Shown piece after piece: positions 9,311 through 27,986 of a stretch of 64,000 bases of DNA. The notes under the pieces are model-generated. The model saw only the letters and a program-made list of their open reading frames with translations, ran no database searches and had not been told where the DNA came from. This DNA comes from an uncultured Planctomycetia bacterium (GTDB lineage Bacteria > Omnitrophota > Gorgyraeia > Duberdicusellales > 4484-171). The position numbers and the translations under genes were made by a program. Positions within the stretch are counted from its first letter, which is position 1, and every line of letters starts with the position of its first letter. Location of the stretch: the NCBI GenBank assembly GCA_964489445.1, contig CAZAYU010000005.1:4799-68798 (forward strand), given 5' to 3'.

Positions 9311-9477
9311 CGTTAACCTCCTTAATACTTAACCATGTTAACCATTAACTACGCAAAGTATACCCCACTCTTACCCAAATGTCAAGTTAGTTGCTAGTTA
9401 AAAAGATACTTACTATCGTGGATATCTTGAGGACATAAAAAAAGACTTTTTGTTAGTCCTGCATCGACAAAATATGT

Positions 9478-11007
9478 TTAAGGGCTATTTCTCCTATTAC
9501 GTCTTATGCGCTGCTCTACTTTCCAGATAACAAAAAGGAAGAAGAAGAACAAAAATAAATATTTAGTGTATGAAAATTTAAATTTAGAATTAACCGGGTT
9601 AGCTGTCGACAAACAAGTAGAATTTAAAAAAATATGGGCAAAGTCATTATGGTAAAGTAGCTTCCAGCCCTTTTCCTTCCACATTATATTTTTCTTGTGA
9701 AAATAGTCATTTAGTAAGATTACAACCTTTGATTTTGCATACCTTGATACACAATCTTCTGTGGCTACCTCCCGAAATACAGAGCTAGAAGAAGGCCTTC
9801 CGGTTACCGCTGAAAAAATCTGGGCAATAAAGTTAGAGTTTGAAGAGATAATATCCATTTGTTGAGTATTCTTTCCGATAACATCTATTATCGGAGAATA
9901 ATACTCTGGGAAAAAAAGGGAATTATAACTAATAGTATCTGCACTTGCTCCTGTTAGAAAATTATAGTATGTCGAATCATCTACACAAAGCTCTCTCTGA
10001 TTTTCCTTAAAGCTGAGAGTCGAATTAAAGATAGATAGGTATCCTATAAAAAATACACATAGATAAAATGAATACTTTATGTTTTTTTTAATTAAAGCAT
10101 CACTTATTTTTAAGAAAAGCAACACCGCAATAAGTGCCAGACCAATAACTCCTTGTCCTGAAAATAAACGGTAAGGATATTTAAAAAAAATAAACACGCT
10201 ACCTGCCGTATACCCCACGCAAAGAGCATATAAAAAATTATTTTTAGTACATAGACAAAATAAGCCCACTATCCCAAATACAATAATAAAAATATTCACT
10301 ACAATAAATTTTGCTCCAATTACTTGGCTGGTATTTACCCAATCTAAATATTTAAAGCAGTGCCAAAAAAAAGGTAATGCTAAACATATCCCCAAAAAGA
10401 TAACTTTTAATGCTGAGCTTCTATACTCCTTATTCACCATGCTCAATGTTAAAAACGAACATAAAAATATCCACGGCATGCCTGCATGAGTATAAAAGGA
10501 AAGCGCCAGCAACAGCCCGGAAATAAAAATATTATTTTTTTTAATTAACATCCAGGAAAACAATCCAAAAATTATTGCTAAGCTAGCCGGAATATTTGCC
10601 GACACCGAAACATAAAAGGAAAAAAAACCGCTTAAAGCAAGAAGCGCAAAAAAAGCAAACTTAGAATTAATTATTCTTCTGGAAACATACCATAACGAGA
10701 AAAAAAATAATGGAATAATTGAAACTTCAGTAATCCTTAATGAATTAATTCCGCTAAGCCCGATTTTTTGCAAACACACTAAAATAAAATGATAAACAGG
10801 TGGATACATGTGCGGTCTACCCGCCGGAGCAAATGACCACCAATCCCATCCTACCCAACCACCAGATTCGATGAATGCATTAGCAACAGATAAATGGTAG
10901 TAAGCATCAATAAACTGAGGAAGGTAACTAAAACGCATTATCGAAAACAGGGAGAATAAAAGCATCAGCCATAGGCTAGATAGATCGAAATATCGGTCTT
11001 TATTCAT
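9478..11007 (-). CDS. Polytopic membrane protein with 11 or more TM helices; possibly a GT-C-fold glycosyltransferase-like protein.
   Basis: The first extracytoplasmic loop reads DAYYHL...GGWVGWDWW, reminiscent of GT-C (STT3/PMT/ArnT-type) loop motifs. It is otherwise unassigned. Confidence 0.35.
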   Translation of the reverse strand: MNKDRYFDLSSLWLMLLFSLFSIMRFSYLPQFIDAYYHLSVANAFIESGGWVGWDWWSFAPAGRPHMYPPVYHFILVCLQKIGLSGINSLRITEVSIIPLFFFSLWYVSRRIINSKFAFFALLALSGFFSFYVSVSANIPASLAIIFGLFSWMLIKKNNIFISGLLLALSFYTHAGMPWIFLCSFLTLSMVNKEYRSSALKVIFLGICLALPFFWHCFKYLDWVNTSQVIGAKFIVVNIFIIVFGIVGLFCLCTKNNFLYALCVGYTAGSVFIFFKYPYRLFSGQGVIGLALIAVLLFLKISDALIKKNIKYSFYLCVFFIGYLSIFNSTLSFKENQRELCVDDSTYYNFLTGASADTISYNSLFFPEYYSPIIDVIGKNTQQMDIISSNSNFIAQIFSAVTGRPSSSSVFREVATEDCVSRYAKSKVVILLNDYFHKKNIMWKEKGWKLLYHNDFAHIFLNSTCLSTANPVNSKFKFSYTKYLFLFFFFLFVIWKVEQRIRRNRRNSP

Positions 11008-11184
11008 TAATGCACTGGGTTTTAAATTGTTTGTTGTAATCTATACTATTTATCATTATACCTTATTGCAAACAACAATGGAACACTGCCTAGGAATAGA
11101 TAGAAGCCACGAAATAATGAAAATTAGAATGGATATCTAAAAAAGATAATTGACAGCAGCTTTAACAAGCTTAAAATATAACCA

Positions 11185-12294
11185 ATGGATAAAAAAATAA
11201 CCACACGCATTGTTTTGTTACTCATCATTAATATTTTTGCCGCAAACTACCTTTACTCATTTGGTCAGCAGAAAAATCAATCTACATCGCAAAAAGCCCT
11301 ACATTGGGAAATATTGGATGATTCGTCTATCCAGTGCACCCTCTGCCCCAGACGTTGTATCATGAACAAGGGGCAAAAAGGATTTTGCCGAGCCAGAAAA
11401 AACGCTGACGGAACGCTTGTGCTGCTAACTTACGCTAAGCCAGTAGCCACACATATTGACCCAATTGAAAAAAAACCGTTATTCCATGTTTTACCAGGAA
11501 CTAAATCCTTTTCAATAGCCACGGCTGGTTGCAATTTAAGATGTAAATTCTGCCAAAATTGGGAGATTTCACAGCTTGATCCAGAAAAAGTAAATATAGC
11601 TTCAGTTTCCCCGCAGGAAATTGTAGATCGCGCGAAAAAAAGTAACACTAAAACAATTGCGTTTACCTATACCGAGCCAACAATATTCTATGAATATATG
11701 TTGGACATCGCAAAGTTAGCAACCACGCAAAAAATTAAGTGTGTAATGCACTCTGCTGGATACATTAACCCTGAGCCATTACGTCAAATCGCTAAGTATT
11801 TGACCGCCTGTAATATTGACCTTAAAGGGTTTAGCGAAGAATATTACGCTCGTTATTGCCAAGGTAGTTTAGCACCTGTATTAAACACCCTGAAGATACT
11901 TAAGGAAGAAAATGTTTGGATAGAAATAACTAACTTAATCGTTCCAGGAGGAAATGATAGTGATAAAAATATAACAGAACTTTGTGAATGGATCAAACAG
12001 AACCTTGGAGTAGATACTCCAATTCACTTTTCGCGATTCTTTCCTATGTACAGGTTAACCAATCTCTCTCCTACCCCTTTAACCAGCCTAACTCGGGCGC
12101 GAGACATTGCCCAAAAAGTCGGATTAAATTTTGTCTATATCGGAAATACTCCAATGCATATCGGTGAAAACACAAGCTGCCCACAATGCAATAAATTGCT
12201 CATAAAACGATTAGGATACACTGTTTTAGAGAATAACATAAAAGAAGGCCGATGCCCATATTGTAATTATAAAATCGCCGGAATCTGGGAATAA
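11185..12294 (+). CDS. AmmeMemoRadiSam-system radical SAM enzyme (PFL-activase-like).
   Basis: N-terminal CTLCPRRC...GFC cysteine motif, then the radical SAM CNLRCKFCQNWEIS (CxxxCxxC) motif. The length and motif order match the AmmeMemoRadiSam rSAM family. An N-terminal hydrophobic anchor (ITTRIVLLLIINIFAANYLY) precedes them. Confidence 0.8.
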   Translation: MDKKITTRIVLLLIINIFAANYLYSFGQQKNQSTSQKALHWEILDDSSIQCTLCPRRCIMNKGQKGFCRARKNADGTLVLLTYAKPVATHIDPIEKKPLFHVLPGTKSFSIATAGCNLRCKFCQNWEISQLDPEKVNIASVSPQEIVDRAKKSNTKTIAFTYTEPTIFYEYMLDIAKLATTQKIKCVMHSAGYINPEPLRQIAKYLTACNIDLKGFSEEYYARYCQGSLAPVLNTLKILKEENVWIEITNLIVPGGNDSDKNITELCEWIKQNLGVDTPIHFSRFFPMYRLTNLSPTPLTSLTRARDIAQKVGLNFVYIGNTPMHIGENTSCPQCNKLLIKRLGYTVLENNIKEGRCPYCNYKIAGIWE

Positions 12295-12343
12295 ATCTAC
12301 CTGTTATCGAGCTGCTTGAGGAATCATAATCTTGCACCACAGA

Positions 12344-14476
12344 CTACTTATCCGTCAATACCACTGCTGTGAATAACAAAATTAAAATCAAAAGCATAAT
12401 TAAACTATTGCAGAGACCAAAAAACGGAATAAGCAGGGCAGAGAAAAAAATTGTTCCCAAGAAAGCTCCTCCGGCATCAGCTGCATATAAAGATGCTGCT
12501 ACAGTTTCTGTTTTGAAATTTCTTCTTATGGCTAATTGTATAAATAGCGGATAGGACGCTCCGGTAAGCGCTCCAGACAGAAACGAATAAGTATAAAAAA
12601 TAAAGTCATAATGAAAGAACTCCTGGAAAAACTTTACGAAAAAAAATAAGCTAGCAGCTAACGCCACCCAGGCCAAATAAAAATATACCTGGTTTTTACT
12701 CTTTACCCAAAACTTATTAGCCGGCAAATTAAACCCCCAGGAACCAGAACCCAGACCCAACATGAATAATCCAATTAACACACCCGCCTTCTGAAAAAGA
12801 GCTCCGGAGTAAAGTTGAAAAAGAATAAAAATAATCGAGCTTAAACCGATAGACATAAACCCCACGAAACTCATTCTACAGATAATTTCTCGTTTTTTTC
12901 CCGAAAAGTTTAAAAGAAAAGCGAAAGATCCCCCTATTACGAAAATCACAATTATTATTGTTTTTATCTGTCGAATATTAATTCTTAAATCCGGATAAAA
13001 TTTTGCTTGCTCTAACAACGAATAATATAAAAACCCCCGGAAATAAAAATCACGATTTATAGCAATTTCTTTATTAATCATTCCCTCAAAATAAACACGT
13101 CGAGAAGGATCAAGAAGATCTTTCAGATGATAGACAGTAAAATAATCAGTAGTAGTGCCAGAACGAATAAAATTTTCCACTAGATAATCTCTTGATAAAG
13201 CTTTTACGTTGTTAGCAATAACTATCATGGAATCTAGGGGCACCAAAAGCCTATATTTAAAAACTTCATCCAGAGTATTTACTATGCAAGAATCAAATTT
13301 CAAAATTCGCGGACCCAAGATATCTCTCTTTGCCGGAATATGAAAGCTAAAAAAGCCTTCAGCTGTTAGAATTTTTTTAACGAGTTCAAAAAATTCTAAG
13401 GAGAAATAACGGTTAAAGGCAAGACTAGAGGGAGGTGGCATATTCATAACTATAAAGTCGTATTTTTTATTTACATTCTTTATGTATTGCCGAGGATCAT
13501 CAACAAGAAATGTAACTCTTGAGTCATCATTCTTGTAGAGCTTTCCTTTGCCTATGGATAAAAACGCTGGATTTATATCTAGACAATCAAGGGTAGATAT
13601 TTTATACTTTAGGATTTCTTCAATCTGTCCACCATAGTAAGGACCGATGAACAAAACATTCTTTATTACAGCAGAAGCTGCAAAAGATGTGTGGATGAAC
13701 TCTTCATTCCAGACATTGTCTTCACTGGAAGATACTAACGAGCCATTAACATATAAGGATTCAGTACCATATTTTTTGGCTAAAATAACCGGCCCGTATT
13801 CTGAGCCAATATTTTTAAGAATATCTGCACTCTGAAATTCTATCTTCGATACAATACGAAAGCTTAGAACAGAAACAATACCGAGTGCAATTAGCACAAA
13901 AACCGGCAATATTTTCTTTGTTTTCCTTAAATCCGAGGTTAAAAAAAGCAAGAGAGGCAAAAAAGTAAAAATAAATGGATTACAGTATCGGGAAAGAAAA
14001 AAAGTAAAAATAACTCCTCCGATAAAAAACCCAGTTGCCTCATAAATAAAAAAATTGGTAAAAATCTTAGGCGTATCAGTAATCTTATTTGAATAACTAC
14101 GACTAATTATACAAAACAAGAAACCAGATAAAAACCCTAGGCCTCCAATAAGTAGTAACGCACTAAAAAGAACAAAGGCCAAACTAGATGCTTCGTAATA
14201 ACTTAGTCCTACTAATGTTTTCCCTAAATGAATCCCAACAACAGAAAAACAAAAAACACCCGCCCAAGCAATCGGCAAAAAACCAGATAATAAAACAGAC
14301 TTTTTCCTGGCAAAGATGCTCCCGAGAAAGCAGAAAGCAAGCCAAATTCCCGCTCCAGCAATGAACGAAAACTCATTTTTGGCGATAGAAAAAGTAAATT
14401 CTCGTAATACTACTAACTGAAATATTGAGCTTACCAGCCCTATAATAAAAAAGATAGACATAGACTTTTTTTGCAC
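12344..14476 (-). CDS. Membrane-embedded spermidine-synthase-like (PABS / SAM-dependent aminopropyl- or methyltransferase fold) fusion protein, 710 aa.
   Basis: About seven N-terminal TM helices. The central PABS-like domain reads GPYYGGQIEEIL...LDCLDINPAF...DFIVMNMPPP. More TM helices follow at the C-terminus. Confidence 0.6.
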   Translation of the reverse strand: MQKKSMSIFFIIGLVSSIFQLVVLREFTFSIAKNEFSFIAGAGIWLAFCFLGSIFARKKSVLLSGFLPIAWAGVFCFSVVGIHLGKTLVGLSYYEASSLAFVLFSALLLIGGLGFLSGFLFCIISRSYSNKITDTPKIFTNFFIYEATGFFIGGVIFTFFLSRYCNPFIFTFLPLLLFLTSDLRKTKKILPVFVLIALGIVSVLSFRIVSKIEFQSADILKNIGSEYGPVILAKKYGTESLYVNGSLVSSSEDNVWNEEFIHTSFAASAVIKNVLFIGPYYGGQIEEILKYKISTLDCLDINPAFLSIGKGKLYKNDDSRVTFLVDDPRQYIKNVNKKYDFIVMNMPPPSSLAFNRYFSLEFFELVKKILTAEGFFSFHIPAKRDILGPRILKFDSCIVNTLDEVFKYRLLVPLDSMIVIANNVKALSRDYLVENFIRSGTTTDYFTVYHLKDLLDPSRRVYFEGMINKEIAINRDFYFRGFLYYSLLEQAKFYPDLRINIRQIKTIIIVIFVIGGSFAFLLNFSGKKREIICRMSFVGFMSIGLSSIIFILFQLYSGALFQKAGVLIGLFMLGLGSGSWGFNLPANKFWVKSKNQVYFYLAWVALAASLFFFVKFFQEFFHYDFIFYTYSFLSGALTGASYPLFIQLAIRRNFKTETVAASLYAADAGGAFLGTIFFSALLIPFFGLCNSLIMLLILILLFTAVVLTDK

Positions 14477-14502
14477 TTGTTTTATACTATTTTATAGTAA
14501 AA

Positions 14503-15150
14503 ATGAAAGAAAATCTATATTATTTATTTGTAAGTGGACTAGTAATGGGAGCAGGGCCCTGTCTTTGCTTATGCGGTCCGTTATTGATAAGCCAAGCGAT
14601 TATCCACGAATCATCCTTACGAAAATCAGTTTTTTCTTATCTTGTTTTTTCCGGATGTAAAATACTTGGCTATTTAATACTATCAATAATCTGCTTCGCC
14701 GGATTCACCACTCTAAATAATATTTTCACCGAAAAGTATTCTCGATTAGTCTACTTAATTATGGGAATCTTTATCTTTCTTACTGGCACAACAGCTTTTA
14801 TCTATTCAAAAAATAAAATTGGAAAATCTTGCCAATGGTTTAGTAAAGGAAGCATCCGAAATCTTGGCATTTTAGGCATACTAGTCGGAATCGCCCCTTG
14901 TTTACCGCTTTTGGGTATTTTAAATTACATACTGCTTGTGTCAGAAACGCTCAGCAGAATGCTCGTATTATCATTTATTTTTGGTTTAGGAACAGTTATC
15001 TCCCCTTTATTTATCATTATTATTGTTGCCGGAAAATTATCTGAGAAAATGACAAAAAATAAAAAAATTCAAACAATAATTAATGTACTTTCTGGAATAA
15101 TTTTACTTATTTTGGGAGGGAAAATTATTCTCCAAACACTAAAGCCGTGA
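14503..15150 (+). CDS. DsbD/CcdA-family transmembrane thiol-disulfide electron-transfer protein (DsbD_2-like).
   Basis: Six-TM protein with two membrane-embedded Pro-Cys motifs, GAGPCLCLCGP and IAPCLPLL. Its 3' end overlaps the convergent Memo-AMMECR1 gene by 26 bp. Confidence 0.45.
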   Translation: MKENLYYLFVSGLVMGAGPCLCLCGPLLISQAIIHESSLRKSVFSYLVFSGCKILGYLILSIICFAGFTTLNNIFTEKYSRLVYLIMGIFIFLTGTTAFIYSKNKIGKSCQWFSKGSIRNLGILGILVGIAPCLPLLGILNYILLVSETLSRMLVLSFIFGLGTVISPLFIIIIVAGKLSEKMTKNKKIQTIINVLSGIILLILGGKIILQTLKP

Positions 15151-16579
15151 ATGTATATGCTTGACAGCTACCATCTTTCCATGAGTCTTCAGAAATTCCT
15201 GCCTTATGTGCGCAGAGGCTATTCAAGAACTCTTCTTTGCTCCAGCCAGTTTCATCGGCCACCTGCGGTAAATACACTCCGCTATGATAACCTTTTTTAA
15301 CTAAAACTCCGTGTTTGCCTAAAATTATCTCTGAGAAATCGTTAACTTTTTGCAACTGAGAAAGAACAGAAATCTCTATATGGATTTTATCCAATTCGTC
15401 TTTCTCTAACGGTAAAAAGCGCGTATCCGCAGTTGCTGCAGCAATTGCCATTTCCTGCACTCCTTCATAAAGCGGTAGCTGACCAACAATATTACCGATA
15501 CACCCTCTAAGACGTCCATTATTACGCAGAGTTACAAAAACACCCAGCACTTCGCTTAATTTTAAATCGTCCGGTTTTCGAGTTAAAGTTTCTCCTTTCT
15601 TTAAATAAAGTGTAATAGTGTCCCGGACTAATTTTAATAGCTGCTGCTTTTGGTTCGCAGATAGCAATTCATCACTTGTTGCTTCTTTAGCCGTCACTCT
15701 TTCTTTCACAAACACAGCGCTTAGGTAACCAACCACTTTCTCATTAATAATTCCTGTTCTTGCTGATGTAGACATTTTCAAGATATCTATCTTGTTAGCA
15801 CCTAGTTTTTTCGACAACATCATTACCGAGGCAACCGCCCCAGGTCCACACATCAAATTTCTATCCATGCAACTATCTAAAAGCAGTTGATAATCCATAG
15901 CCTTCATCATTTGTGCAGTTTGACGGTCAACATCTATTGCCTCGAACAAAGGAAGGTAGTGACTCAAATCAGTGCTGGCAACAATTAGCACGTTCTCTTT
16001 TTTATCTAAAACTGAATAAAGCCCTTCAGAAACAATCTGACAATTGTTTGCACTTTGTTTTCCAATTGCCAACAACAAAACCTTAGGATTACCAAGGGCA
16101 ACCTGGATAAACGGTAAAATCAATTCAACAGAATTTTCTTGATTAAACGCCTCAGGATGGATAATAAACTTTTTGTTTTTGGCAACTAGTTTCTTCACTA
16201 AGAGCTCATCAGAGTAAAGAGCCCCTAATGGTGTTTCAAAACCTTTTCTGGCAAAAACAGCTATCCCATCATAATCTAAACGATGGCTAAAACCCACCAC
16301 AACCACAGTATCTATTTTTTTTCCTTTAAGTGCCTTAAACGCGTAAGCAGCCGTATCTCCAGATGCGCTAACACCGGCATGCGGACAAATCACTGAAACA
16401 ACATCATCCTGGATAGGCAAGACATCAGCGTTATCCAGATAATCATTTATCTGCTGTCTTAGCAATCTTGGATCGTCGGAATACCAACTCCCGCTTAAAT
16501 CAGACTTTTTCATTTCTTGCGTAAAGCCACTGTTTACCATTATTAACAATAAAAAGCATAAAAAAATAACACGGCACAT
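15125..16579 (-). CDS. Memo1-like / AMMECR1 fusion protein (AmmeMemo component of the AmmeMemoRadiSam system).
   Basis: The N-terminal half is Memo-like (SWYSDDP...VICPHAGVSASGDTAAYAFKAL...VVVGFSH). The C-terminal half is AMMECR1 (GVFVTLRNNGRLRGCIGN...ADTRF). The first 20 aa are hydrophobic, and the start may be the downstream MKKSD Met. Confidence 0.8.
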   Translation of the reverse strand: MCRVIFLCFLLLIMVNSGFTQEMKKSDLSGSWYSDDPRLLRQQINDYLDNADVLPIQDDVVSVICPHAGVSASGDTAAYAFKALKGKKIDTVVVVGFSHRLDYDGIAVFARKGFETPLGALYSDELLVKKLVAKNKKFIIHPEAFNQENSVELILPFIQVALGNPKVLLLAIGKQSANNCQIVSEGLYSVLDKKENVLIVASTDLSHYLPLFEAIDVDRQTAQMMKAMDYQLLLDSCMDRNLMCGPGAVASVMMLSKKLGANKIDILKMSTSARTGIINEKVVGYLSAVFVKERVTAKEATSDELLSANQKQQLLKLVRDTITLYLKKGETLTRKPDDLKLSEVLGVFVTLRNNGRLRGCIGNIVGQLPLYEGVQEMAIAAATADTRFLPLEKDELDKIHIEISVLSQLQKVNDFSEIILGKHGVLVKKGYHSGVYLPQVADETGWSKEEFLNSLCAHKAGISEDSWKDGSCQAYTFTALVFGE

Positions 16580-16586
16580 GAGCTTG

Positions 16587-16844
16587 CTAGCTAAAGAAGA
16601 TACTTTCCCCTCTTCTTATGTCATCCTTGGCCAAATATTTAACCGAAATATTTGCCTTATCTCCCTTTATCACCTTTTTTACTTTCACACCCTCTTTTTC
16701 AATTTTTACAACTGTAAAACGTTTACCTCTAGCAGTTACTCCGATTTCACCCTCCCTAACTTCTCCGGACTCAACATCACCAATTAATACAGACCCAGAT
16801 TCTCCCGCGATATAGATTTCCCTAATATTTACTTCAGCGCTCAT
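16587..16844 (-). CDS. Stand-alone EF-Tu domain-2-like beta-barrel small protein, 85 aa.
   Basis: VLIGDVESGEVREGEIGV...VVKIEKEGVKVKKVIKGDKANISVKYLAKDDIRRGESIF follows the GTP_EFTU_D2 consensus (G.V.sG.l..Gd.v...p...V.sIe....v..a.aGd.v...l.....i.rG..l). A strong SD (AAGGAGGGAA) sits 5 nt upstream. The stop is 7 bp before the Memo-AMMECR1 start. Confidence 0.5.
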   Translation of the reverse strand: MSAEVNIREIYIAGESGSVLIGDVESGEVREGEIGVTARGKRFTVVKIEKEGVKVKKVIKGDKANISVKYLAKDDIRRGESIFFS

Positions 16845-16894
16845 ATTCCCTCCTTTATACCTAAAGATTTAAATCCTTTTTGTTGCATGTTACA

Positions 16895-17905
16895 TTAACA
16901 GCGTCTAAGGCCTAGGTCTATTATCTTTTGTATTAATTTATCGTAAGGGATATCACCTTTTTCTGCCGCTTGCCCTACTTCATCATACTGGTCCAAGCAC
17001 GGATTAGCATTCGCCTCAATGATGTATATTTTCGCATTACTGCCAACTCGTATATCAAAACGAGCATAGCACTCCATATTTAAAGCTCGGTAAGCGCGCT
17101 TACAAACATCTTTAATCTGTTCTCCTAGACCATTAGGAAGACGTCCGGCATAAACATTTTTAATCCCCCACTTTTGTCGATAATCATAGTCCCATTTTGC
17201 TTTATACGTAACAATTCGTGGCTCATCTTCACAAAACTTACCAAACTTCATCTCCGTAAACGGTAAAACTTTAACTCGTTTGTTACCAATCACGCTCACG
17301 TAAAGTTCTCGGCCTTCAATATATTCTTCAACAATCGCGTCACTCTTCATACTTTCATGGATGAACTTGACTCTTTCAATGAGCGCATCTTGATTGTCAA
17401 TAATCGAAGCCTGTGATATCCCTCGGGAAGCTTCTTCTGATATGGGTTTAACAACCAAAGGAAGTCGCAATCGTTTAGGGAGCCAAATTTTTCGATTACG
17501 ACAAAAAGTATAAAATCGGGGAACTTTTATTCGATGAAAACTTAAAATTTTCTTAGTTAACGCCTTATCTCCGCAAATAAACAAACTCATTGACGAAGCT
17601 CCAGTGTATGGAATACCTAGCAATTCTAGAACGCCAGCAATATTTTTATCATAAAAAGTTTTCTGTTTGAAAACATCAGCAAGATTAAAAATAATATCCG
17701 GCTTACTCTCACGAACTTCTTCCAATAAAATACCAATATCATTAAATAGCCCCAGCAATCTTACTTCGTGGCCATTTTTCAGTAGCGCCTTATGCACATC
17801 AGACTCCGTACCCCAATTAAGATCGGTAAATTCTTCCTTGTAATTGTAACCACGCGGCTTTGGATAAGGAGAATCAAATAATAAGAGTACTTTTATCTTT
17901 TTCAT
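16895..17905 (-). CDS. ATP-grasp ligase of the D-alanine--D-alanine ligase-like family.
   Basis: N-terminal pre-ATP-grasp domain, central KPISEEASRGISQ, and C-terminal ARFDIRVGSNAKIYIIEANANPCL (the E-x-N metal-binding motif). Confidence 0.7.
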   Translation of the reverse strand: MKKIKVLLLFDSPYPKPRGYNYKEEFTDLNWGTESDVHKALLKNGHEVRLLGLFNDIGILLEEVRESKPDIIFNLADVFKQKTFYDKNIAGVLELLGIPYTGASSMSLFICGDKALTKKILSFHRIKVPRFYTFCRNRKIWLPKRLRLPLVVKPISEEASRGISQASIIDNQDALIERVKFIHESMKSDAIVEEYIEGRELYVSVIGNKRVKVLPFTEMKFGKFCEDEPRIVTYKAKWDYDYRQKWGIKNVYAGRLPNGLGEQIKDVCKRAYRALNMECYARFDIRVGSNAKIYIIEANANPCLDQYDEVGQAAEKGDIPYDKLIQKIIDLGLRRC

Positions 17906-18948
17906 TTTCCCTTACTAAACCACCCAGTATGTAAGTAATTCATCACCAAAGTCGTAACATATGCGGAAATTTCCAACATTACTAACGCCTCATCTTTTTC
18001 GCTTCCCAAAGAAAGCGCTTTGGAGCGACGAATAATATTATCCAGCAAATCGCTAATAGTATATTTTTTTTCTCCAGTCCACTTAGCGATATTATTTAAA
18101 ATATCTTTTTTTCGGCGCTTTAAAATGTCAGCTGCTAAATTCTTGCCTTTATCCTTGTCAGACAAACTTTTTTCCTCTAGAGGGGAAAATATTCTTTTTA
18201 AGTTAGAATCATGAAAATCAGGAAACTCCTCCGCATAAGAACGACGTTTTTTCTTGTAGAAATTATTAAGTGTAGCCTTAATCTGTGACGCCTGCCAGTA
18301 TTTTTTTCCTTTACTTACCATCGGCGGCTTTATTTTTATCTCCTGCATCAATTCATCCACATATTTTAGTTTGTCTATTGCTTTCCAGCCTCGATATTGT
18401 TTTTCCCAATTTAGGCCTGGCGTAAGCCAAACCGAAAATGTTTCGGCAAAGTCTTCATCCGGATGGTATTGTGCGTAATAATCCTCCAAATGTCTGACAA
18501 AGCTTTTGCTGTAAGGCCGAAAGCGATAAGTGTCCTCATATTCCTTCGAAAATTCACCAAAAACACTTTTCCACTTTTTTCTTCGGTAAAATTTGTAGGC
18601 ATAATTTAAAGCGTGCCCAGCTTCATGCCTTAATAGCTTCATGCACCAGGAACGCGTTCCTCCTTCCACTTCCAAAATCATTTTTCTTTCTAATTTCATG
18701 AGCGTCGGGTCAGATAAAAAAAAAGCAATCCCCACAACCGGTTCTTTATCTGGAGTTAGCCACTCATCAGCTAAATAGCACTCTGGTTTAAAATTAATTC
18801 CTTTGCTTTCTAGGTTGTTATACAATTCTTCTACACAGCTTTTTAGCCAACTGCCTTCTATCGATAGCGGTAAATCACAAACTCGTAAGTTCATCAATTC
18901 TTCTTCGGAAAGCTTCGCTAAATCAATTTTTTCCTTAGTTTTAACCAT
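17902..18948 (-). CDS. HExxH zinc metallopeptidase (zincin), possibly MtfA/M90-like.
   Basis: LLRHEAGHALNY supplies the HExxH. A candidate third ligand lies in HPDEDFAETF about 58 aa downstream. There is a Lys/Arg-rich central segment. A 4-bp overlap with the ATP-grasp gene indicates translational coupling. Confidence 0.5.
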   Translation of the reverse strand: MVKTKEKIDLAKLSEEELMNLRVCDLPLSIEGSWLKSCVEELYNNLESKGINFKPECYLADEWLTPDKEPVVGIAFFLSDPTLMKLERKMILEVEGGTRSWCMKLLRHEAGHALNYAYKFYRRKKWKSVFGEFSKEYEDTYRFRPYSKSFVRHLEDYYAQYHPDEDFAETFSVWLTPGLNWEKQYRGWKAIDKLKYVDELMQEIKIKPPMVSKGKKYWQASQIKATLNNFYKKKRRSYAEEFPDFHDSNLKRIFSPLEEKSLSDKDKGKNLAADILKRRKKDILNNIAKWTGEKKYTISDLLDNIIRRSKALSLGSEKDEALVMLEISAYVTTLVMNYLHTGWFSKGK

Positions 18949-19004
18949 TCTGTTGACTGTTTACAAACAATTTTTTATTTTTCCCGGAATAGTAATACGG
19001 AAAT

Positions 19005-19616
19005 CTATTTAGATATTTCACTAGTTAACTCAACACAATCAAAATAATAAACACCTTTTCCCGGAAGCCGAGGCTCAAATTGAAAGCTCAACAGAGGAAA
19101 TTCTAACACTTCATCATTAACTGCTGCCTCCGGCTGCCAATCGTTGCGCGGGAAAAAAAGAGTAAACGGACAAATAATTCTTTTCCATCCTTCAAAATCA
19201 TCATCAAGCAAAAAACGCCATAGCTCTCCTTGATTATCCTTAATATCAAAAGCGATAACACCCCCTGAATTGCTACCATACATCTCCAAGGCAATACTGT
19301 TATATCTTTTCCAGTTGATCTCCTCTGGATTAACTAGCCAAGCAGCAGCACCGGGAATGTCAAGCCCATAACCTCTAGCTACCCACATATATCCTGATGG
19401 TTTAAGGTTGTAATCTAACTTCAAGGATTGGTTTCCACAGAATTTTATAGTACCATCGGCTTTAACTACTAACGATGATCCTCCTCCGGACCCAAAATCA
19501 ACTGTTTCTGGGCTTATTTCCTGTTCAAAACTATCTATCAATAACACTCGAGGAGAGTTACTACATCCGCAAGAGAAAAAAAGACATATCACAATACACA
19601 AATAAGTTCTATTCAT
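19005..19616 (-). CDS. Lipoprotein with a beta-sandwich (CBM11/CIA30-like) domain; hypothetical.
   Basis: Lipobox ...FFSCGC followed by a Trp/Gly-rich region. Function is not assigned. Confidence 0.4.
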   Translation of the reverse strand: MNRTYLCIVICLFFSCGCSNSPRVLLIDSFEQEISPETVDFGSGGGSSLVVKADGTIKFCGNQSLKLDYNLKPSGYMWVARGYGLDIPGAAAWLVNPEEINWKRYNSIALEMYGSNSGGVIAFDIKDNQGELWRFLLDDDFEGWKRIICPFTLFFPRNDWQPEAAVNDEVLEFPLLSFQFEPRLPGKGVYYFDCVELTSEISK

Positions 19617-19728
19617 TTTACTCCTTTTTTTTAAACTTCTTAATGCTTGCCATTACTATACATTCTGGATGATTCAGAAAACATGGAAATAGCATAATAT
19701 CATAAGAGAATCTTTCGGTCAAACAGAC

Positions 19729-20790
19729 TCAATTGGGCTTACAAACAGATGTAACATCCTTCCGAGCAATTATTCCCCCACCCAATAAAAAGTCGCCCAC
19801 ATAAAATGCAGCAATTTGTCCTGGAGTTACCGCCTCTACCATCTTATCTAAAAATACTGCGGTCTGTAGCCCTTCTGCCTTAATCTTGCAGTTGTAAGTT
19901 GAGGAATTATAACGTAACCGCACAGTAATATGATTTGCCTCTGCCGGATCAAAAAACCAGTTAACGGAATTTACTATGAAACTATCAGTATAAAGAAATT
20001 CTCTTTCTCCAACAATAATGACCTTATTTCTTGGGTTAATATCAACAACATAAAGTGGCTTTGGCCAAGAAATTCCTAATCCGGCTCTTTGACCATACGT
20101 GTACCGATAAATTCCCATATGCCTTCCAATTTTCTTCCCGCTAACGTGCAGAATGTCTCCCGTATATTGATAGCTATCTATTACGTTTGCTTCAATAAAT
20201 TCCGAATAACAAGAATTTTTGACAAAGCAAACATCCTGACTTTCTTTTTGGAAACTGCGAAATATTTTCTGTTCAATGCCCATTGTCTTAACTTCCTGCT
20301 TGGTTAATTCGCCCAAAGGAAACACGACATTATTAAACACTTTTTGAGGAACTAGAGCAAAAAAGTATTCTTGTGATTTTTTTTTATCTTTAGCCTGACG
20401 AATAAGAATACTACTATTTTTTTTAACTAACCGAGCATAATGTCCAGTAGCTAGACAATCAATGCCCATCGCTTTTACTTTATCTAACAAAAATCCAAAT
20501 TTTATTCGAAGATTACAGAAAGTACAAGGGTTAGGTGTAAGTCCCTCAAGGTAAGATTTAATGAAATAGTTGACGACCTGCTTTTTAAACAAATCCTGGA
20601 TATCGAGAGTATGGTGATTGATCTTTAAAAAATCACAAATTCTTTTCGCTTGAATTACTCCCTGGTCATTACACCCTGAATACAATTTAAGTGTAAAGCC
20701 AGTAACCTGCCAGCCTTTCTTTTTTAAAATATATGCGGCCAATCCTGAGTCTGCGCCCCCGCTTAATGCCAACGCGATTTTTTTCTTCAT
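19729..20790 (-). CDS. mnmA: tRNA-specific 2-thiouridylase MnmA.
   Basis: PP-loop IALALSGGADS, conserved Cys residues, and MnmA-type length and C-terminal domain. Confidence 0.85.
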   Translation of the reverse strand: MKKKIALALSGGADSGLAAYILKKKGWQVTGFTLKLYSGCNDQGVIQAKRICDFLKINHHTLDIQDLFKKQVVNYFIKSYLEGLTPNPCTFCNLRIKFGFLLDKVKAMGIDCLATGHYARLVKKNSSILIRQAKDKKKSQEYFFALVPQKVFNNVVFPLGELTKQEVKTMGIEQKIFRSFQKESQDVCFVKNSCYSEFIEANVIDSYQYTGDILHVSGKKIGRHMGIYRYTYGQRAGLGISWPKPLYVVDINPRNKVIIVGEREFLYTDSFIVNSVNWFFDPAEANHITVRLRYNSSTYNCKIKAEGLQTAVFLDKMVEAVTPGQIAAFYVGDFLLGGGIIARKDVTSVCKPN

Positions 20791-20842
20791 TTATGAACGT
20801 AAAAAACGATGAAATCGATTTATTTTTTTAAAAAAATCCAAA

Positions 20843-21835
20843 CTAAACATATTTAACCATACGCTCTAAGGCAATCTTCGCTTTTTTACTTACTTCAAGG
20901 TCTACTTCTATTTGGTGAATATCCTTATCTAGCGAATCGTAAAGACTTTCTAACGTAATCTTTTTCATATCCTGGCAAATTTTAGGAAAACCTATGGAGT
21001 AAAACTTCTTCTGAGGATTTTCTTTTTCTAGACGATATATCATCCCTTCTTCCGTTCCCACAATAAACTCTTTAATGTCAGAATCATGAGCGATGTTCAA
21101 CATTCCAGCAGTAGAACAGACATAGTCAGAAACATTTAGCACCTCCATTCTGCACTCAGGATGCACCATTACTTTTGCATGCGAGTATTTTTGTTTCGTT
21201 TGGATTAAATCATCCAGTGAAAAAATATCGTGTACAGGACAAAACCCTGGCCAACGGATTATTTTTTTCTCCGGAACATTACTCTCTACCCAACTAGCTA
21301 AATTGCGATCCGGAACAAAAATTATTTCCTCTTTCGGCGCTTTACGAACCACACTAACAGCATTGCTAGAAGTGCAGCAAACATCGCTCAACGCCTTTAC
21401 ACTTGCAGATGTGTTTACATAGCTAACCACCCAGGAGTCAGGGTATTTTTCCTTTAGCTTAACAAGATCGTCAGGCTCTGCCATGTCAGCTAATGGACAT
21501 CCAGCATCAATTACCGGCAAAATAATTTTTTTATTCGGGGAAAGAATTTTAGCAGTTTCAGCCATAAACTTTACCCCGCAAATAACTATAGTCTCCGCAT
21601 CTAATTCTCTGGATATTTTAGCCAGTTCTAAGGAATCACCCTTGTAGTCCGCTAACTCCTGAACCTCCGGAATCTGGTAATTATGAGCAAGGAATACTGC
21701 TTTGCGTTTTTTCTTTAGATTGATAATGTCTTGGGTTAAATTTATTTTTTCTGTGTTCATTGTGCCCTTTTGTTTATGATGGTTGTAGTTCTTTTTCTTT
21801 CCAAACAAATACTTTATCATTTCGCCGAGCAACAA
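20843..21835 (-). CDS. nadA: Quinolinate synthase NadA.
   Basis: MVHPEC, FCPVHD and the three-repeat NadA architecture. The true start is probably the internal Met (MNTEKIN, near 21760), because the annotated 5' end overlaps the U32 peptidase gene. Confidence 0.85.
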   Translation of the reverse strand: MLLGEMIKYLFGKKKNYNHHKQKGTMNTEKINLTQDIINLKKKRKAVFLAHNYQIPEVQELADYKGDSLELAKISRELDAETIVICGVKFMAETAKILSPNKKIILPVIDAGCPLADMAEPDDLVKLKEKYPDSWVVSYVNTSASVKALSDVCCTSSNAVSVVRKAPKEEIIFVPDRNLASWVESNVPEKKIIRWPGFCPVHDIFSLDDLIQTKQKYSHAKVMVHPECRMEVLNVSDYVCSTAGMLNIAHDSDIKEFIVGTEEGMIYRLEKENPQKKFYSIGFPKICQDMKKITLESLYDSLDKDIHQIEVDLEVSKKAKIALERMVKYV

Positions 21836-23024
21836 ACGGTAGTTTGACTCCTCCTGTATTGCCTCGCTCTAGACTATCAACAAATTTATGTTCTATCTGC
21901 AAATCACTGACAACAGCAAAAGAAGCCGGAGTATTTTTTCCCACACATAAAACTTGATCTCCCTTCTTAAGCCCTCTATTTCTCACTTTAACCTCAGCAA
22001 CATTTATCTTCTTGTAAAACTTCACGACTTCACCGATATATATTTTCTCGTATTCACTTTCTAACCGCCGGCTGATTGCCTTTGTTGGCTTACCTAAAAA
22101 AAACCCGCTGGAAAATCCCCGGTTATACACTGCCTTTAGCCTAGACTTCAATTCTTTTTTCAGTTGGCCATTAAGTGTGCCTTTAAAATAAGCATCAATC
22201 GCATTCCGATACACAGAAGTTACCACTTTTACATATTCCGGAGAACGAATTCTTCCTTCAATTTTAAAAGAAGTTATTTTTGCCTCTATTAGCTTATCAA
22301 TAAAATCAATAGTACATAAATCTTTAGGACTCAAAATATAATCTTCACCCATTATGTATTGGCACTCATCCTCTTTGTCGGAGATAAAGTATTCTCGCCG
22401 ACACGGTTGTAAACACTCACCACGATTGGCTGATTTTGAAAACGAATATTCAGACAAAAAACACCTTCCCGAAATACTTATACACATTGCCCCGTGGATA
22501 AACGTTTCTATCTGACAGCTAGTTCCATCTCTTTCCATCTCTTGAATTAAGGTCTTGATATCGCCAAGACAACACTCCCTTGCTAAAACCACACGTTTTG
22601 CACCTAAGGCTGAGTAGTGTCTTAGCGCTTCAATATTTGCAGTGCTAGCTTGTGTAGAAAGATGAATTTTTAACCCCAGCTCTTTAGCTAGAGAAAAAAC
22701 ACCCATATCCCATAAAATTACTGCGTCCACACCAGCGCATTTAGCTTCATTTAGAATAGTTTTAATCTTTTCTATTTCGTGATTGTAAACAATTACGTTT
22801 AGAGCTAAATAACCCTTTTTCTGATGTTTGTGTAGTGTCTGAATTATTTTTTTTAACTCTAAAATATCAAAATTGACCGCAAAGTTACGCATGCTCAGCC
22901 CTTTCAACCCAAAATAAACACCATCGGCCCCTGCACTTATCGCGCTATGCAATGAGTCCCAATCTCCCGCCGGAGCAATTAACTCTGGTTTTTCCAAGTG
23001 TTGAATATTATTTTCACTAAACAT
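21774..23024 (-). CDS. Peptidase U32 family protein (PrtC-like).
   Basis: PELIAPAGDWDSLHSAISAGADGVYFGLK is an N-terminal U32 signature. The C-terminal domain is conserved. Confidence 0.85.
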   Translation of the reverse strand: MFSENNIQHLEKPELIAPAGDWDSLHSAISAGADGVYFGLKGLSMRNFAVNFDILELKKIIQTLHKHQKKGYLALNVIVYNHEIEKIKTILNEAKCAGVDAVILWDMGVFSLAKELGLKIHLSTQASTANIEALRHYSALGAKRVVLARECCLGDIKTLIQEMERDGTSCQIETFIHGAMCISISGRCFLSEYSFSKSANRGECLQPCRREYFISDKEDECQYIMGEDYILSPKDLCTIDFIDKLIEAKITSFKIEGRIRSPEYVKVVTSVYRNAIDAYFKGTLNGQLKKELKSRLKAVYNRGFSSGFFLGKPTKAISRRLESEYEKIYIGEVVKFYKKINVAEVKVRNRGLKKGDQVLCVGKNTPASFAVVSDLQIEHKFVDSLERGNTGGVKLPFVARRNDKVFVWKEKELQPS

Positions 23025-23042
23025 TAAATAATCGGTTGATTG

Positions 23043-23522
23043 CTAGGATACTTTCTTGATTTCATAGCGTAATGTTCCCGCTGGTACGCTTATCTTGATG
23101 ATATCTTTTTCTTGATGGCCCAATAATGATTTACCTACCGGAGACACCACAGAGATAAGCCCTTTTAAGGCATCTGCCTCATCTTGGCCTACTAATGTGT
23201 ACTCTATTTCATCTTCCGTGTCCAAATCTACCAAAGTTACCTTGGCGCCAATATATGCTTTTCCTTGCTCTGTTTTTACATTTTCAATAATCTCTACCCG
23301 ACTCAATTTATCTTCAAGCTCTCTTATTTTTTTTTCGTTGTACGACATCGCTTCTTTTGCTGCATGATATTCAGCATTCTCCTTCAAATCTCCCAGAGCA
23401 CGAGCACACTCAATAGCTGAAGATATCTCTCTACGCTTTACATTTCTTAGCTGTTCAAGCTCTAGCGTTAAACGCTCATACCCTTTTTGAGTTAAATACA
23501 CCCTATCCATGTTACCTCCCAC
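23043..23522 (-). CDS. greA: Transcription elongation factor GreA.
   Basis: GDLKENAEYHAAKE is the GreA coiled-coil signature, followed by a C-terminal FKBP-like domain. Confidence 0.9.
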   Translation of the reverse strand: MGGNMDRVYLTQKGYERLTLELEQLRNVKRREISSAIECARALGDLKENAEYHAAKEAMSYNEKKIRELEDKLSRVEIIENVKTEQGKAYIGAKVTLVDLDTEDEIEYTLVGQDEADALKGLISVVSPVGKSLLGHQEKDIIKISVPAGTLRYEIKKVS

Positions 23523-23547
23523 TATTTAAATATTTTTTAGAATTACA

Positions 23548-25065: not shown

Positions 25066-25109
25066 GTTAACCTCGCTATCTATTTTCTTGCCATAAGTAA
25101 TATTAGCTG

Positions 25110-27365: not shown

Positions 27366-27986
27366 TTACTGAAAGAAATTGTCAGACAGGTTAGATAACT
27401 TTCCGCTGTTCTTTTTATGAGAGCTTAAGGAAAAAACTCTCTTGTACCCGTACACACTAAAAAGATGCTTCTGCAACTCAGACAGCGATCTGGCTTTAGT
27501 CTTTTTTAATACAGAATTATCAATCCAACAGTACATATCTCTATCTTTGAATATACAAATAGCATGACCGCCATTTGCACCCTGCATAGCAATAATCTCT
27601 GGCTTGTAGCCAAACACGCGAAGCACAGCTTCGTTTAAGAATGCATAATCTTCGCAATCTCCCTGTTTTCGTATTAAGGTTTCCTCGGGAGATAACCACT
27701 CATCGCCATTTTTATCTTTAAAGTAATCAATATTATCAGCAACCCACTTCATGTAATCATTTAAGGAGTGAATATTGTTATTACTTAGTAAGTCCATTAT
27801 TTTCTTATCTATCGGCACAGGACGGCAAACATACACCCCATTATTCTGAAATGTTTCTTGACGAATAACAAATCGTCGGGGTAAATTCTCTAAAGAATAG
27901 CTATCCGGAGATGCCCAACAACTGCTTGAGATTGTCATTCCCCCAAGAAACGCTACAATTACAAGAATTTTTTTCATACTATGCAT
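27366..27986 (-). CDS. Transglutaminase-like cysteine protease superfamily lipoprotein.
   Basis: Signal or lipobox SSC, then QGDCEDYAFL...GGHAICIF...D, a Cys-His-Asp transglutaminase-like core. Confidence 0.6.
   Translation of the reverse strand: MHSMKKILVIVAFLGGMTISSSCWASPDSYSLENLPRRFVIRQETFQNNGVYVCRPVPIDKKIMDLLSNNNIHSLNDYMKWVADNIDYFKDKNGDEWLSPEETLIRKQGDCEDYAFLNEAVLRVFGYKPEIIAMQGANGGHAICIFKDRDMYCWIDNSVLKKTKARSLSELQKHLFSVYGYKRVFSLSSHKKNSGKLSNLSDNFFQ

What the first reader, a model, noticed from the sequence alone, without database searches (positions are those of the whole stretch)
16587..16844. Orphan 85-aa protein made only of an EF-Tu domain-2-like beta-barrel
Read by eye, the sequence follows the translation-factor domain-2 consensus (GDVESGEV.EGE...V.KIE..G..V..V..GD...I.V......DI.RGE.IF), but no G domain or domain 3 is present. 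It has the strongest ribosome-binding site in the region (AAGGAGGGAA) and sits between the ATP-grasp and Memo-AMMECR1 genes. Stand-alone copies of this barrel are unusual. In this context it could be a substrate, carrier or adaptor.
Basis: partly seen in the sequence, partly recalled or inferred. Interest (0 to 1): 0.6.

Follow-up and report, generated by a model that had tools for sequence, protein, structure and literature searches.

The report
Stand-alone EF-Tu domain-2 barrel protein
This is a real, conserved 85-residue protein of Omnitrophota bacteria made only of the beta-barrel found as domain 2 of translation elongation factors; it is an optional add-on to a conserved peptidase/ATP-grasp operon, not a core part of it, and an archaeal stand-alone barrel of this kind (Pbp11) is already known.

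Summary
ORF 16587-16844(-) encodes 85 aa behind the strongest Shine-Dalgarno site among 14 neighbouring genes. It has 34 distinct full-length relatives and dN/dS of 0.09-0.28. The AlphaFold model (pLDDT 92.6) superposes on domain 2 of eEF1A, aEF1A and EF-Tu (TM 0.91, rmsd 1.1-1.4 A). There is no G domain or domain 3.

Stand-alone barrels of this fold are known: Pbp11 of Thermococcales (TM 0.8, 27% identity). This protein is not a Pbp11 member (17 bits against a cutoff of 100, and no N-terminal tail).

The gene sits directly after the ATP-grasp gene in most barrel loci examined (window, 12 genome and 5 metagenome loci). But the Peptidase_Mx/ATP-grasp pair is adjacent in every genome locus long enough to show both genes (79 of 80) and has the barrel in only 12 of 72 assessable ones. 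Nine close relatives have ATP-grasp followed directly by Memo-AMMECR1, with no remnant. Two genomes carry the barrel after an EF-G-like gene instead. No conserved C-terminal tail suggests covalent modification.

Best reading: a non-catalytic, lineage-restricted accessory binding module. Its conserved K41/K47/E49/K69 residues include the equivalent of EF-Tu Glu259, which contacts the tRNA acceptor end. The ligand is unproven. This is a new variant of a known kind, of modest interest.

The parts
16587..16844 (-). CDS of the 85-aa stand-alone EF-1alpha/EF-Tu-type domain-2 beta-barrel (stop codon included)
   Evidence: ORF. AF2 model pLDDT 92.6. Foldseek matches eEF1A and EF-Tu domain 2 at TMq 0.91. 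Homologues. dN/dS 0.09-0.28.
16846..16855 (-). Shine-Dalgarno site AAGGAGGGAA, ending 1 nt before the ATG (GGAGG core ends 4 nt before it)
   Evidence: Sequence. Duplex energy -12.1 kcal/mol, the strongest of 14 neighbouring genes. An SD is present upstream in most homologous loci.
16895..17905 (-). Upstream operon partner: Ddl-family ATP-grasp ligase (336 aa). It is not a bona fide Ddl by NCBIfam cutoffs. The gap to the barrel gene is 50 nt, with no terminator.
   Evidence: Pfam Dala_Dala_lig_C 4.5e-23. NCBIfam Ddl 130.6 bits against a cutoff of 243. PDB Ddl 3.3e-25. No terminator found. It is directly upstream of the barrel in the window and in all 12 genome and 5 metagenome loci that hold both genes.
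17902..18948 (-). Peptidase_Mx-type HExxH protein (348 aa). It overlaps the ATP-grasp start by 4 nt and is the conserved partner of the ATP-grasp.
   Evidence: Pfam PF15887 5.3e-6, 26.5 bits against a cutoff of 27. Adjacent to the ATP-grasp in 79 of 80 genome loci; the remaining contig ends within Mx. More than 7162 clusters. No PDB fold neighbour.
15125..16579 (-). Downstream neighbour: Memo-AMMECR1 fusion (AmmeMemoRadiSam proteins B and A). It starts 7 nt after the barrel stop codon. It is context only and not functionally tied to the barrel by the evidence.
   Evidence: Pfam and NCBIfam hits. It follows the ATP-grasp directly in barrel-less relatives.

Best explanation
The ORF encodes a genuine small protein that is one translation-factor domain-2 beta-barrel and nothing else. 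It descends from the aminoacyl-tRNA-binding branch of translational GTPases (EF-1alpha, EF-Tu, SelB, eRF3) rather than from EF-G or IF2. It defines a small, fast-evolving family found mainly in one part of the phylum Omnitrophota.

In the window it is the third gene of a likely Mx / ATP-grasp / barrel / Memo-AMMECR1 transcription unit, and it is translated from an unusually strong SD. It is an optional passenger of that operon, not a core subunit and not a covalent substrate.

Most likely mechanism (inferred, about 0.3-0.4): it is a non-catalytic binding module. Its conserved surface residues [KR]39, K41, [RK]42, K47, E49 and K69 include the equivalent of EF-Tu Glu259, on the strand that receives the tRNA CCA end. 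On that basis the ligand would be an RNA or tRNA 3' end, or a nucleotide-like moiety, as in Pbp11 and the isolated IF2 C2 domain.

Shown here: the gene is real, its fold, its ancestry, its optional status and the conserved residues. Inferred: the ligand and any link to translation.
For: Gene and fold.

Ancestry: the family profile hits aEF1A (1.6e-8), eRF3, GTPBP1 and EF-Tu, and no EF-G or IF2 among the 60 listed hits. NCBIfam gives EF-1alpha in 13 of 22 members, SelB in 7 and Pbp11 in 8.

Conserved residues across 34 sequences: K41 33/34, K47 32/34, E49 32/34, K69 33/34; median pI 9.0. E49 aligns with E. coli EF-Tu Glu259, one of the two tRNA-end contact residues cited for EF-Tu and Pbp11 in PMC9540759.

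Precedent: Pbp11, a stand-alone barrel of this fold, binds tRNA.

Optional status: the barrel is present in 12 of 72 assessable Mx/ATP-grasp loci. Barrel-less loci are interspersed in the same ATP-grasp clade and carry no remnants. The same protein database holds 13 barrel clusters against more than 7162 Mx clusters.

Other translation-related neighbours: an EF-G-like GTPase directly upstream in two genomes and YqeY directly downstream in two lineages.

Expression: an SD is present upstream in most homologues and there is no terminator between the genes.
Against: - Only one of the two EF-Tu tRNA-end contacts is conserved. The Arg288 equivalent is Arg in 2 of 34 sequences.
- The aminoacyl-pocket positions (E215, D216, T228 equivalents) are variable. 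In EF-Tu that pocket also needs domain 1.
- Pbp11 needs its flexible N-terminal tail to bind tRNA. This protein has no tail; strand 1 starts at residue 3.
- Net charge is only about +2.
- The conserved residues were placed relative to EF-Tu only through a sequence alignment.
- In most loci the only constant neighbour is the ATP-grasp gene, which favours a role with that enzyme.
Confidence: 0.4

Rival explanations
1. It is an accessory protein-protein adaptor or regulatory subunit of the Mx/ATP-grasp pair. The barrel would bind the ligase or the peptidase and tune its substrate choice or activity in the lineages that carry it, with no RNA involved.
For: Where both genes are on the same contig (window, 12 genome and 5 metagenome loci), the barrel starts between -3 and 86 nt after the ATP-grasp stop, on the same strand. 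This holds while the downstream gene varies: Memo-AMMECR1, AMMECR1 alone, YqeY or a response regulator. No terminator lies between them.
Against: - The pair is far more widespread and more conserved (about 65-70% identity where the barrel shows 33-35%) and works without the barrel in most genomes.
- Two genomes keep the pair and the barrel on different contigs.
- No ATP-grasp or Mx residue or indel tracks barrel presence within the clade.
- The upstream side (MnmA, CBM11, Mx, ATP-grasp) is itself a rigid syntenic block, so constant adjacency may be historical.
Confidence: 0.25
2. It is a covalent substrate or carrier protein of the ATP-grasp ligase, like ribosomal protein S6 for RimK or LysW for LysX. 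Mx would act as the trimming or removing peptidase.
For: ATP-grasp plus peptidase pairs are a recurrent theme in peptide-tagging systems (general knowledge; Iyer et al. 2009, not read here). The gene order of ligase then small protein is compatible. About half the members end in an acidic residue.
Against: - There is no flexible tail; the chain ends with the last barrel strand.
- The C-terminal residue is not conserved: F, D, E, S, G, K, R, N or V.
- The ligase is Ddl-like rather than RimK- or LysX-like.
- Most ligase genes have no barrel nearby.
Confidence: 0.07
3. It is a substrate or partner of the AmmeMemoRadiSam system (Memo-AMMECR1 plus radical SAM enzyme).
For: An AMMECR1-containing gene directly follows the barrel in the window and most relatives. 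The substrate of that system is unknown; a literature search found no functional study.
Against: - AMMECR1 follows the ATP-grasp directly in nine barrel-less relatives.
- In the YqeY, response-regulator and EF-G-like contexts no AMMECR1 gene adjoins the barrel.
- NCBIfam models this three-gene system as a widely distributed family set (my knowledge of the TIGR04335-04337 models), whereas the barrel family has about 17 clusters in 1.84 billion representatives.
Confidence: 0.05
4. It mimics a translation factor on the ribosome. As a free domain 2 it would dock on the 30S shoulder, where domain 2 of all translational GTPases binds, and modulate factor access.
For: The fold match to domain 2 is very close. 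An EF-G-like GTPase is the upstream gene in two genomes. The strong SD suggests abundance.
Against: There is no direct evidence. The loop equivalent to EF-Tu residues 219-226 is only weakly conserved. The family is rare and dispensable.
Confidence: 0.1
5. It is not a real gene, only a chance ORF between two genes.
For: The protein is short, and automated annotation gives it no name or 'hypothetical protein'.
Against: There are 34 homologues with purifying selection, an SD upstream in most of them, and a confident fold.
Confidence: 0.01

Closest known systems
Domain 2 of EF-1alpha/EF-Tu-type translational GTPases (Pfam PF03144 GTP_EFTU_D2; SCOP 'translation proteins' beta-barrel)
   Same: The fold is the same over the whole chain: TMq 0.91, rmsd 1.1-1.4 A, 25-31% identity to eEF1A and aEF1A. 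The structural glycines and the Glu259 equivalent are conserved.
   Different: There is no G domain and no domain 3, so there is no GTPase cycle and no complete aminoacyl pocket. The sequence scores below the Pfam gathering threshold (20.6 against 30.3 bits). The family-specific motif G-x-T-x-[KR]-G-K-[RK]-x-x-[VIL]-[VI]-K-I-E replaces the EF-Tu loop.
Pbp11 (Q9UZY3) of Thermococcales, a stand-alone tRNA-binding and proteasome-binding barrel (NCBIfam NF041207; PDB 7ANU, 1XE1, 4PGO)
   Same: It is a stand-alone protein of about 10 kDa with the same barrel (TMq 0.82, TMt 0.80, 27% identity). The Glu259 equivalent is conserved.
   Different: - It is bacterial (Omnitrophota), not archaeal.
- It scores 16.9 bits against the family cutoff of 100.
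- It lacks the N-terminal tail that Pbp11 needs for tRNA binding.
- The Arg288 equivalent is not conserved.
- The genomic context is different, and these bacteria have no PAN proteasome partner.
C-terminal barrel of IF2/aIF5B (Pfam PF14578 GTP_EFTU_D4; IF2 C2 domain)
   Same: It is the best Pfam hit by E-value (3.7e-4; 9 of 22 members match). From my own knowledge, the isolated IF2 C2 barrel binds the fMet-tRNA acceptor end by itself, so such a barrel can bind a ligand without other domains.
   Different: The hit is below the gathering score (20.8 against 23.8 bits). The family profile prefers EF-1alpha and EF-Tu domain 2 over IF2 in the PDB. There is no evidence for initiator-tRNA specificity.
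Small substrates and carriers of ATP-grasp ligases (ribosomal protein S6/RimK; LysW/LysX)
   Same: A small protein is encoded next to an ATP-grasp ligase.
   Different: There is no conserved acidic C-terminal tail. The ligase is Ddl-like. The association is optional.

Membership tests
Pfam PF03144 GTP_EFTU_D2 (translation-factor domain 2) | Sequence score at or above the gathering threshold (30.3 bits) | tested here: not met
   20.6 bits, E = 5.9e-4. Seven of 22 family members match at E <= 0.01, best 4e-7.
Pfam PF03144 GTP_EFTU_D2 (translation-factor domain 2) | Six-stranded 'translation protein' beta-barrel fold superposable on EF-Tu/EF-1alpha domain 2 | tested here: met
   AF2 pLDDT 92.6. 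Foldseek TMq 0.91, rmsd 1.1-1.4 A, probability 1.00 to eEF1A, aEF1A and EF-Tu. Family profile against PDB gives aEF1A at 1.6e-8.
Translational GTPase (EF-Tu/EF-1alpha/SelB) | N-terminal G domain and C-terminal domain 3 | tested here: not met
   The 85 aa are covered end to end by the barrel. The flanking genes are an ATP-grasp and Memo-AMMECR1.
Pbp11 (NCBIfam NF041207, equivalog) | Score at or above the curated cutoff (100 bits) | tested here: not met
   16.9 bits, E = 4.4e-3. Eight of 22 members match weakly, best 8.4e-6. PDB phmmer against 7anu gives E = 0.79.
Pbp11 (NCBIfam NF041207, equivalog) | Flexible N-terminal tail required for tRNA binding | tested here: not met
   Strand 1 begins at residue 3 of the model. 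The requirement is described in PMC9540759.
Pbp11 (NCBIfam NF041207, equivalog) | Conservation of the EF-Tu tRNA-end contacts Glu259 and Arg288 | tested here: inconclusive
   The Glu259 equivalent (E49) is conserved in 32 of 34 sequences. The Arg288 equivalent (R78) is Arg in only 2 of 34.
Pbp11 (NCBIfam NF041207, equivalog) | tRNA binding and PAN-proteasome binding | not testable with these tools
   This needs EMSA and pull-down experiments.
Component of the Peptidase_Mx/ATP-grasp operon | Consistent co-occurrence with the pair | tested here: not met
   The barrel is present in 12 of 72 assessable loci. The same database holds 13 barrel clusters against more than 7162 Mx clusters. The barrel is on another contig in genomes JAFGQU01 and CAZABB01.
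Component of the Peptidase_Mx/ATP-grasp operon | Same-strand adjacency with short gaps when present | tested here: met
   Gaps of -3 to 86 nt after the ATP-grasp stop in the window and all 12 genome and 5 metagenome loci that hold both genes. No terminator.
ATP-grasp substrate/carrier proteins (S6/RimK, LysW/LysX type) | Conserved, exposed C-terminal acidic acceptor tail | tested here: not met
   The C-terminus is the last barrel strand and its final residue varies.
AmmeMemoRadiSam system (TIGR04335/04336/04337) | Membership in the three defined families, or obligate linkage to them | tested here: not met
   The barrel matches none of the three models. AMMECR1 follows the ATP-grasp directly in barrel-less relatives. 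The barrel occurs without an adjacent AMMECR1 gene in the YqeY, response-regulator and EF-G-like contexts.

The most novel reading that the evidence does not exclude
A free-standing mimic of translation-factor domain 2 that, in some Omnitrophota, captures tRNA acceptor ends or occupies the factor-binding site on the 30S shoulder. It would link translation status to the neighbouring, still uncharacterised Mx/ATP-grasp peptide-ligase module. That would be a bacterial counterpart of archaeal Pbp11 with a different partner system.
Probability: 0.15. Interest if true: 0.6.

Novelty: new variant of a known kind. Interest (0 to 1): 0.3.

Why it matters
If the barrel binds tRNA ends or ribosomes, it would be the first bacterial example of a translation-factor domain released as an independent small protein. 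It would extend the single archaeal precedent, Pbp11.

It could also give a first experimental handle on the Mx/ATP-grasp pair. That pair is conserved across Omnitrophota (more than 7000 protein clusters, all unnamed) and has no solved structural relative.

As it stands, the result mainly adds a well-defined small-protein family: an HMM-ready alignment, a confident model and a set of conserved residues. It also shows that the tempting 'substrate/carrier' reading from gene order is not backed by comparative genomics.

Tried and rejected
- **Genome scan with the barrel.** The search for related loci with the full barrel alignment failed for lack of a conserved 7-mer. I therefore spent the single genome scan on the Mx protein and looked for barrels in its flanks.
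- **Metagenome scan.** The scan with a narrower barrel alignment gave only six true loci, all from the subgroup that supplied the search motif and all next to or consistent with the ATP-grasp operon. It also gave three false positives, L107-L109.
- **Co-adaptation signature.** I searched the ATP-grasp and Mx proteins for residues or indels that track barrel presence within the clade. Nothing convincing appeared; the best column separates 58-61%.
- **Barrel remnants.** tblastn found none in barrel-less loci.
- **Defence and phage libraries.** PADLOC and PHROGs gave no hits. Composition matches the neighbours, so a mobile or defence origin is rejected.
- **Mx protein.** The AF2 model (pLDDT 79.7) has no Foldseek neighbour in the PDB at E <= 0.001. 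PDB sequence search gave only a spurious gasdermin match. Mx therefore gave no clue to the operon's chemistry.
- **Literature.** Searches for Peptidase_Mx with ATP-grasp, for AmmeMemoRadiSam, and for stand-alone EF-Tu domain 2 returned nothing functional apart from the Pbp11 paper.
- **Antisense ORFs.** The ORFs at 16578-16787(+) and 16618-16815(+) were not pursued. They overlap a CDS under purifying selection and look low in complexity.

Full report
**1. The observation**

The minus strand carries an ATG-to-stop ORF at 16587..16844 that encodes 85 aa.

The sequence AAGGAGGGAA lies at 16846-16855(-), immediately upstream of the ATG. Its predicted pairing with a generic anti-SD is -12.1 kcal/mol. 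That is the strongest of the 14 genes between 9.4 and 25 kb, and most of those genes have no recognisable SD.

The upstream gene (16895-17905) is a Ddl-family ATP-grasp. The downstream gene (15125-16579) is a Memo-AMMECR1 fusion, that is, AmmeMemoRadiSam proteins B and A.

No terminator-like hairpin separates the three genes. The gaps are 50 nt and 7 nt. GC content matches the neighbours.

**2. It is a real gene**

- The word-indexed search found four close homologues.
- An exhaustive phmmer scan of 1.84 billion representatives found 17 stand-alone proteins of 52-87 aa, a few of them truncated, besides eEF1A itself and two repeat-protein artefacts.
- Adding genes recovered from fetched loci gives 34 distinct full-length sequences.
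- Nei-Gojobori dN/dS is 0.09-0.28 for pairs with dS below 1.2.
- An AGGAG- or GGAGG-type SD precedes the start codon in most homologous loci.

**3. Fold and ancestry**

With a 14-sequence alignment, AlphaFold2 gives an all-beta model with mean pLDDT 92.6.

Foldseek against the PDB returns domain 2 of yeast eEF1A, Sulfolobus aEF1A and bacterial EF-Tu. The values are TMq 0.85-0.91, rmsd 1.1-1.9 A and 24-31% identity over 81-88 columns.

Sequence methods agree, although single-sequence Pfam scores fall below the gathering thresholds:
- GTP_EFTU_D2 scores 20.6 bits against 30.3, and GTP_EFTU_D4 scores 20.8 against 23.8.
- NCBIfam EF-1alpha gives 8.6e-7.
- The family profile gives aEF1A at 1.6e-8, followed by eRF3, GTPBP1, EF-Tu and SelB, and no EF-G or IF2 among the 60 listed hits.

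The barrel therefore descends from the aminoacyl-tRNA-binding branch of translational GTPases. The 85 residues are fully used by the barrel, so there is no G domain or domain 3.

**4. Is a stand-alone copy unusual?**

Pbp11 of Pyrococcus (PDB 7ANU) matches at TMq 0.82, TMt 0.80 and 27% identity. It is a characterised stand-alone barrel of this fold. It binds tRNA and the PAN-proteasome, and its authors note that EF-Tu Glu259 and Arg288, two tRNA-end contacts, are conserved (PMC9540759).

The present family is not Pbp11:
- It scores 16.9 bits against a cutoff of 100.
- It has no N-terminal tail, and Pbp11 needs that tail for tRNA binding.
- It is bacterial.

An archaeon-like contig (L015) carries two further stand-alone barrels. 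One of them (P0022) is the most divergent member of the present family.

**5. Genomic context**

Close relatives show full synteny with the window. That is uninformative on its own.

More distant members give other arrangements:
- Mx / ATP-grasp / barrel / YqeY.
- Mx / ATP-grasp / barrel / AMMECR1 alone, or a response regulator.
- EF-G-like (about 1056-1074 aa) / barrel / shikimate kinase, in Omnitrophota genomes JAFGQU01 and CAZABB01.
- Band_7 / barrel, in the archaeon-like contig.

To test whether the barrel belongs to the Mx/ATP-grasp module, I scanned one genome per species with the Mx protein. This gave at least 389 confirmed loci, of which 80 were fetched. The titles name nearly all as Omnitrophota, or carry automated 'Planctomycetia' labels. 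Candidatus Susulua is classified in Omnitrophota.

HMM searches of all ORFs in those loci gave these results:
- Mx and the ATP-grasp are adjacent in every locus long enough to show both genes (79 of 80; the remaining contig ends within Mx).
- A barrel follows in only 12 of the 72 loci with enough downstream sequence.
- In a neighbour-joining tree of the ATP-grasp proteins, the barrel-bearing loci fall in one clade. They are interspersed with nine barrel-less loci.
- In several of those nine, Memo-AMMECR1 follows the ATP-grasp within 50 nt. tblastn finds no barrel remnant.
- JAFGQU01 and CAZABB01 carry Mx/ATP-grasp without a barrel on one contig (L053, L039) and the barrel on another (L013, L018).
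- In the same 5.8-billion-protein database, Mx has more than 7162 clusters and the barrel has 13.
- No residue or indel in the ATP-grasp or Mx tracks barrel presence.
- The barrel evolves much faster than its neighbours. It is 33-35% identical between the window and L011/L017, against about 65% for Mx and a similarly high level for the ATP-grasp.

The barrel is therefore an optional accessory gene. It is not a core subunit of the Mx/ATP-grasp pair or of the AmmeMemoRadiSam system.

One point still favours some tie to the ATP-grasp operon. Where both genes are on the same contig, the barrel always sits directly after the ATP-grasp gene (gaps of -3 to 86 nt), whatever gene follows.

**6. Substrate or carrier?**

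The chain ends with the last barrel strand. The terminal residue varies across the family: F, D, E, S, G, K, R, N or V. The ligase is Ddl-like rather than RimK- or LysX-like. A conserved acceptor tail of the S6 or LysW type is absent.

**7. What the conserved residues suggest**

Beyond the structural glycines, the family conserves E31, T37, [KR]39, K41 (33/34), [RK]42, K47 (32/34), E49 (32/34), K69 (33/34) and D75.

Aligning the family HMM to E. coli EF-Tu places E49 on Glu259. In EF-Tu, Glu259 stacks on A76 of the tRNA (my knowledge of the Nissen 1995 ternary complex; the residue is also cited).

By the alignment these residues lie on the strands that receive the tRNA CCA end in EF-Tu.

The Arg288 equivalent is not conserved (Arg in 2 of 34). 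The aminoacyl-pocket positions are variable. The proteins are only mildly basic (median net charge +2, pI 9.0).

**8. Verdict on mechanism**

My best reading is a non-catalytic binding module that uses those conserved residues. The most likely ligand is an RNA or tRNA 3' end, by analogy with EF-Tu domain 2, the isolated IF2 C2 domain (my knowledge) and Pbp11. The neighbouring EF-G-like and YqeY genes in other lineages are consistent with this.

I put this at about 0.3-0.4. An optional protein-protein adaptor for the Mx/ATP-grasp pair comes next at about 0.25. The remaining readings are minor: ribosomal factor-site mimic about 0.1, covalent substrate about 0.07, and AmmeMemoRadiSam partner about 0.05.

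**9. The operon's chemistry stays unknown**

The Mx protein has an HExxH motif and borderline PF15887 similarity. Its AF2 model (pLDDT 79.7) has no significant PDB neighbour. Sources name its relatives only 'hypothetical' or 'putative zinc-binding metallopeptidase'. PADLOC and PHROGs give nothing for any of the three proteins.

**10. Novelty and score**

The fold is known, and a stand-alone archaeal precedent is known. What is new is a bacterial, Omnitrophota-restricted family with its own motif (G-x-T-x-[KR]-G-K-[RK]-x-x-[VIL]-[VI]-K-I-E), no N-terminal tail and a different genomic setting.

I rate it a new variant of a known kind, with interest 0.3. It is solid and well delimited, but rare, dispensable and without a demonstrated function.

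Noticed in passing
window 28015-28113(-) and 28276-28355(-): Two c-di-GMP-I riboswitch variant aptamers lie in tandem upstream of the 206-aa ORF 27366-27986(-): RF03167 (GGC type, 68.8 bits) and RF03168 (UAU type, 70 bits). Both score above their gathering scores.
   Followed up: no
window 17902-18948(-) and 16895-17905(-); loci L021-L100: The Peptidase_Mx-like HExxH protein and the Ddl-like ATP-grasp overlap by 4 nt. They are adjacent in every genome locus long enough to show both genes (79 of 80). Mx has more than 7162 protein clusters, all unnamed. Its AF2 model has no significant Foldseek neighbour in the PDB. This is a widespread, conserved and uncharacterised two-gene module of Omnitrophota and the PVC group.
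   Followed up: partly
window 15125-16579(-) and 11185-12294(+): The Memo-AMMECR1 fusion begins with a hydrophobic, signal-peptide-like segment (MCRVIFLCFLLLIMVNSGF). The AmmeMemoRadiSam radical SAM enzyme also has a hydrophobic N-terminus (MDKKITTRIVLLLIINIFAANYLY). A membrane-anchored or exported location would be unexpected for this system.
   Followed up: no
L013 4740-7910(+); L018 1638-4862(+): These loci encode an EF-G-like GTPase of about 1056-1074 aa whose EF-G domains are preceded by an N-terminal extension of about 360 aa with no Pfam match. In these two Omnitrophota genomes the barrel gene lies about 90-100 nt downstream of it.
   Followed up: partly
window 9400-25100: Most genes in this stretch have no detectable Shine-Dalgarno sequence. 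The barrel gene has a very strong one, and an SD is also present upstream in most homologues. This suggests high or specially controlled translation of the small protein.
   Followed up: partly
L015 8001-8249(+) and 2337-2606(-): A contig with archaeal-type genes (RtcB, Archease, signal peptide peptidase, MJ0043_C) carries two stand-alone domain-2-like barrels. One overlaps the end of a Band_7/SPFH gene. The other is 89 aa and matches GTP_EFTU_D2 and Peptidase_U32_C weakly.
   Followed up: no
window 12344-14476(-): A 710-aa polytopic membrane protein with a central spermine/spermidine-synthase domain is conserved next to the DsbD_2-like gene and the AmmeMemoRadiSam genes in the window's close relatives.
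   Followed up: no
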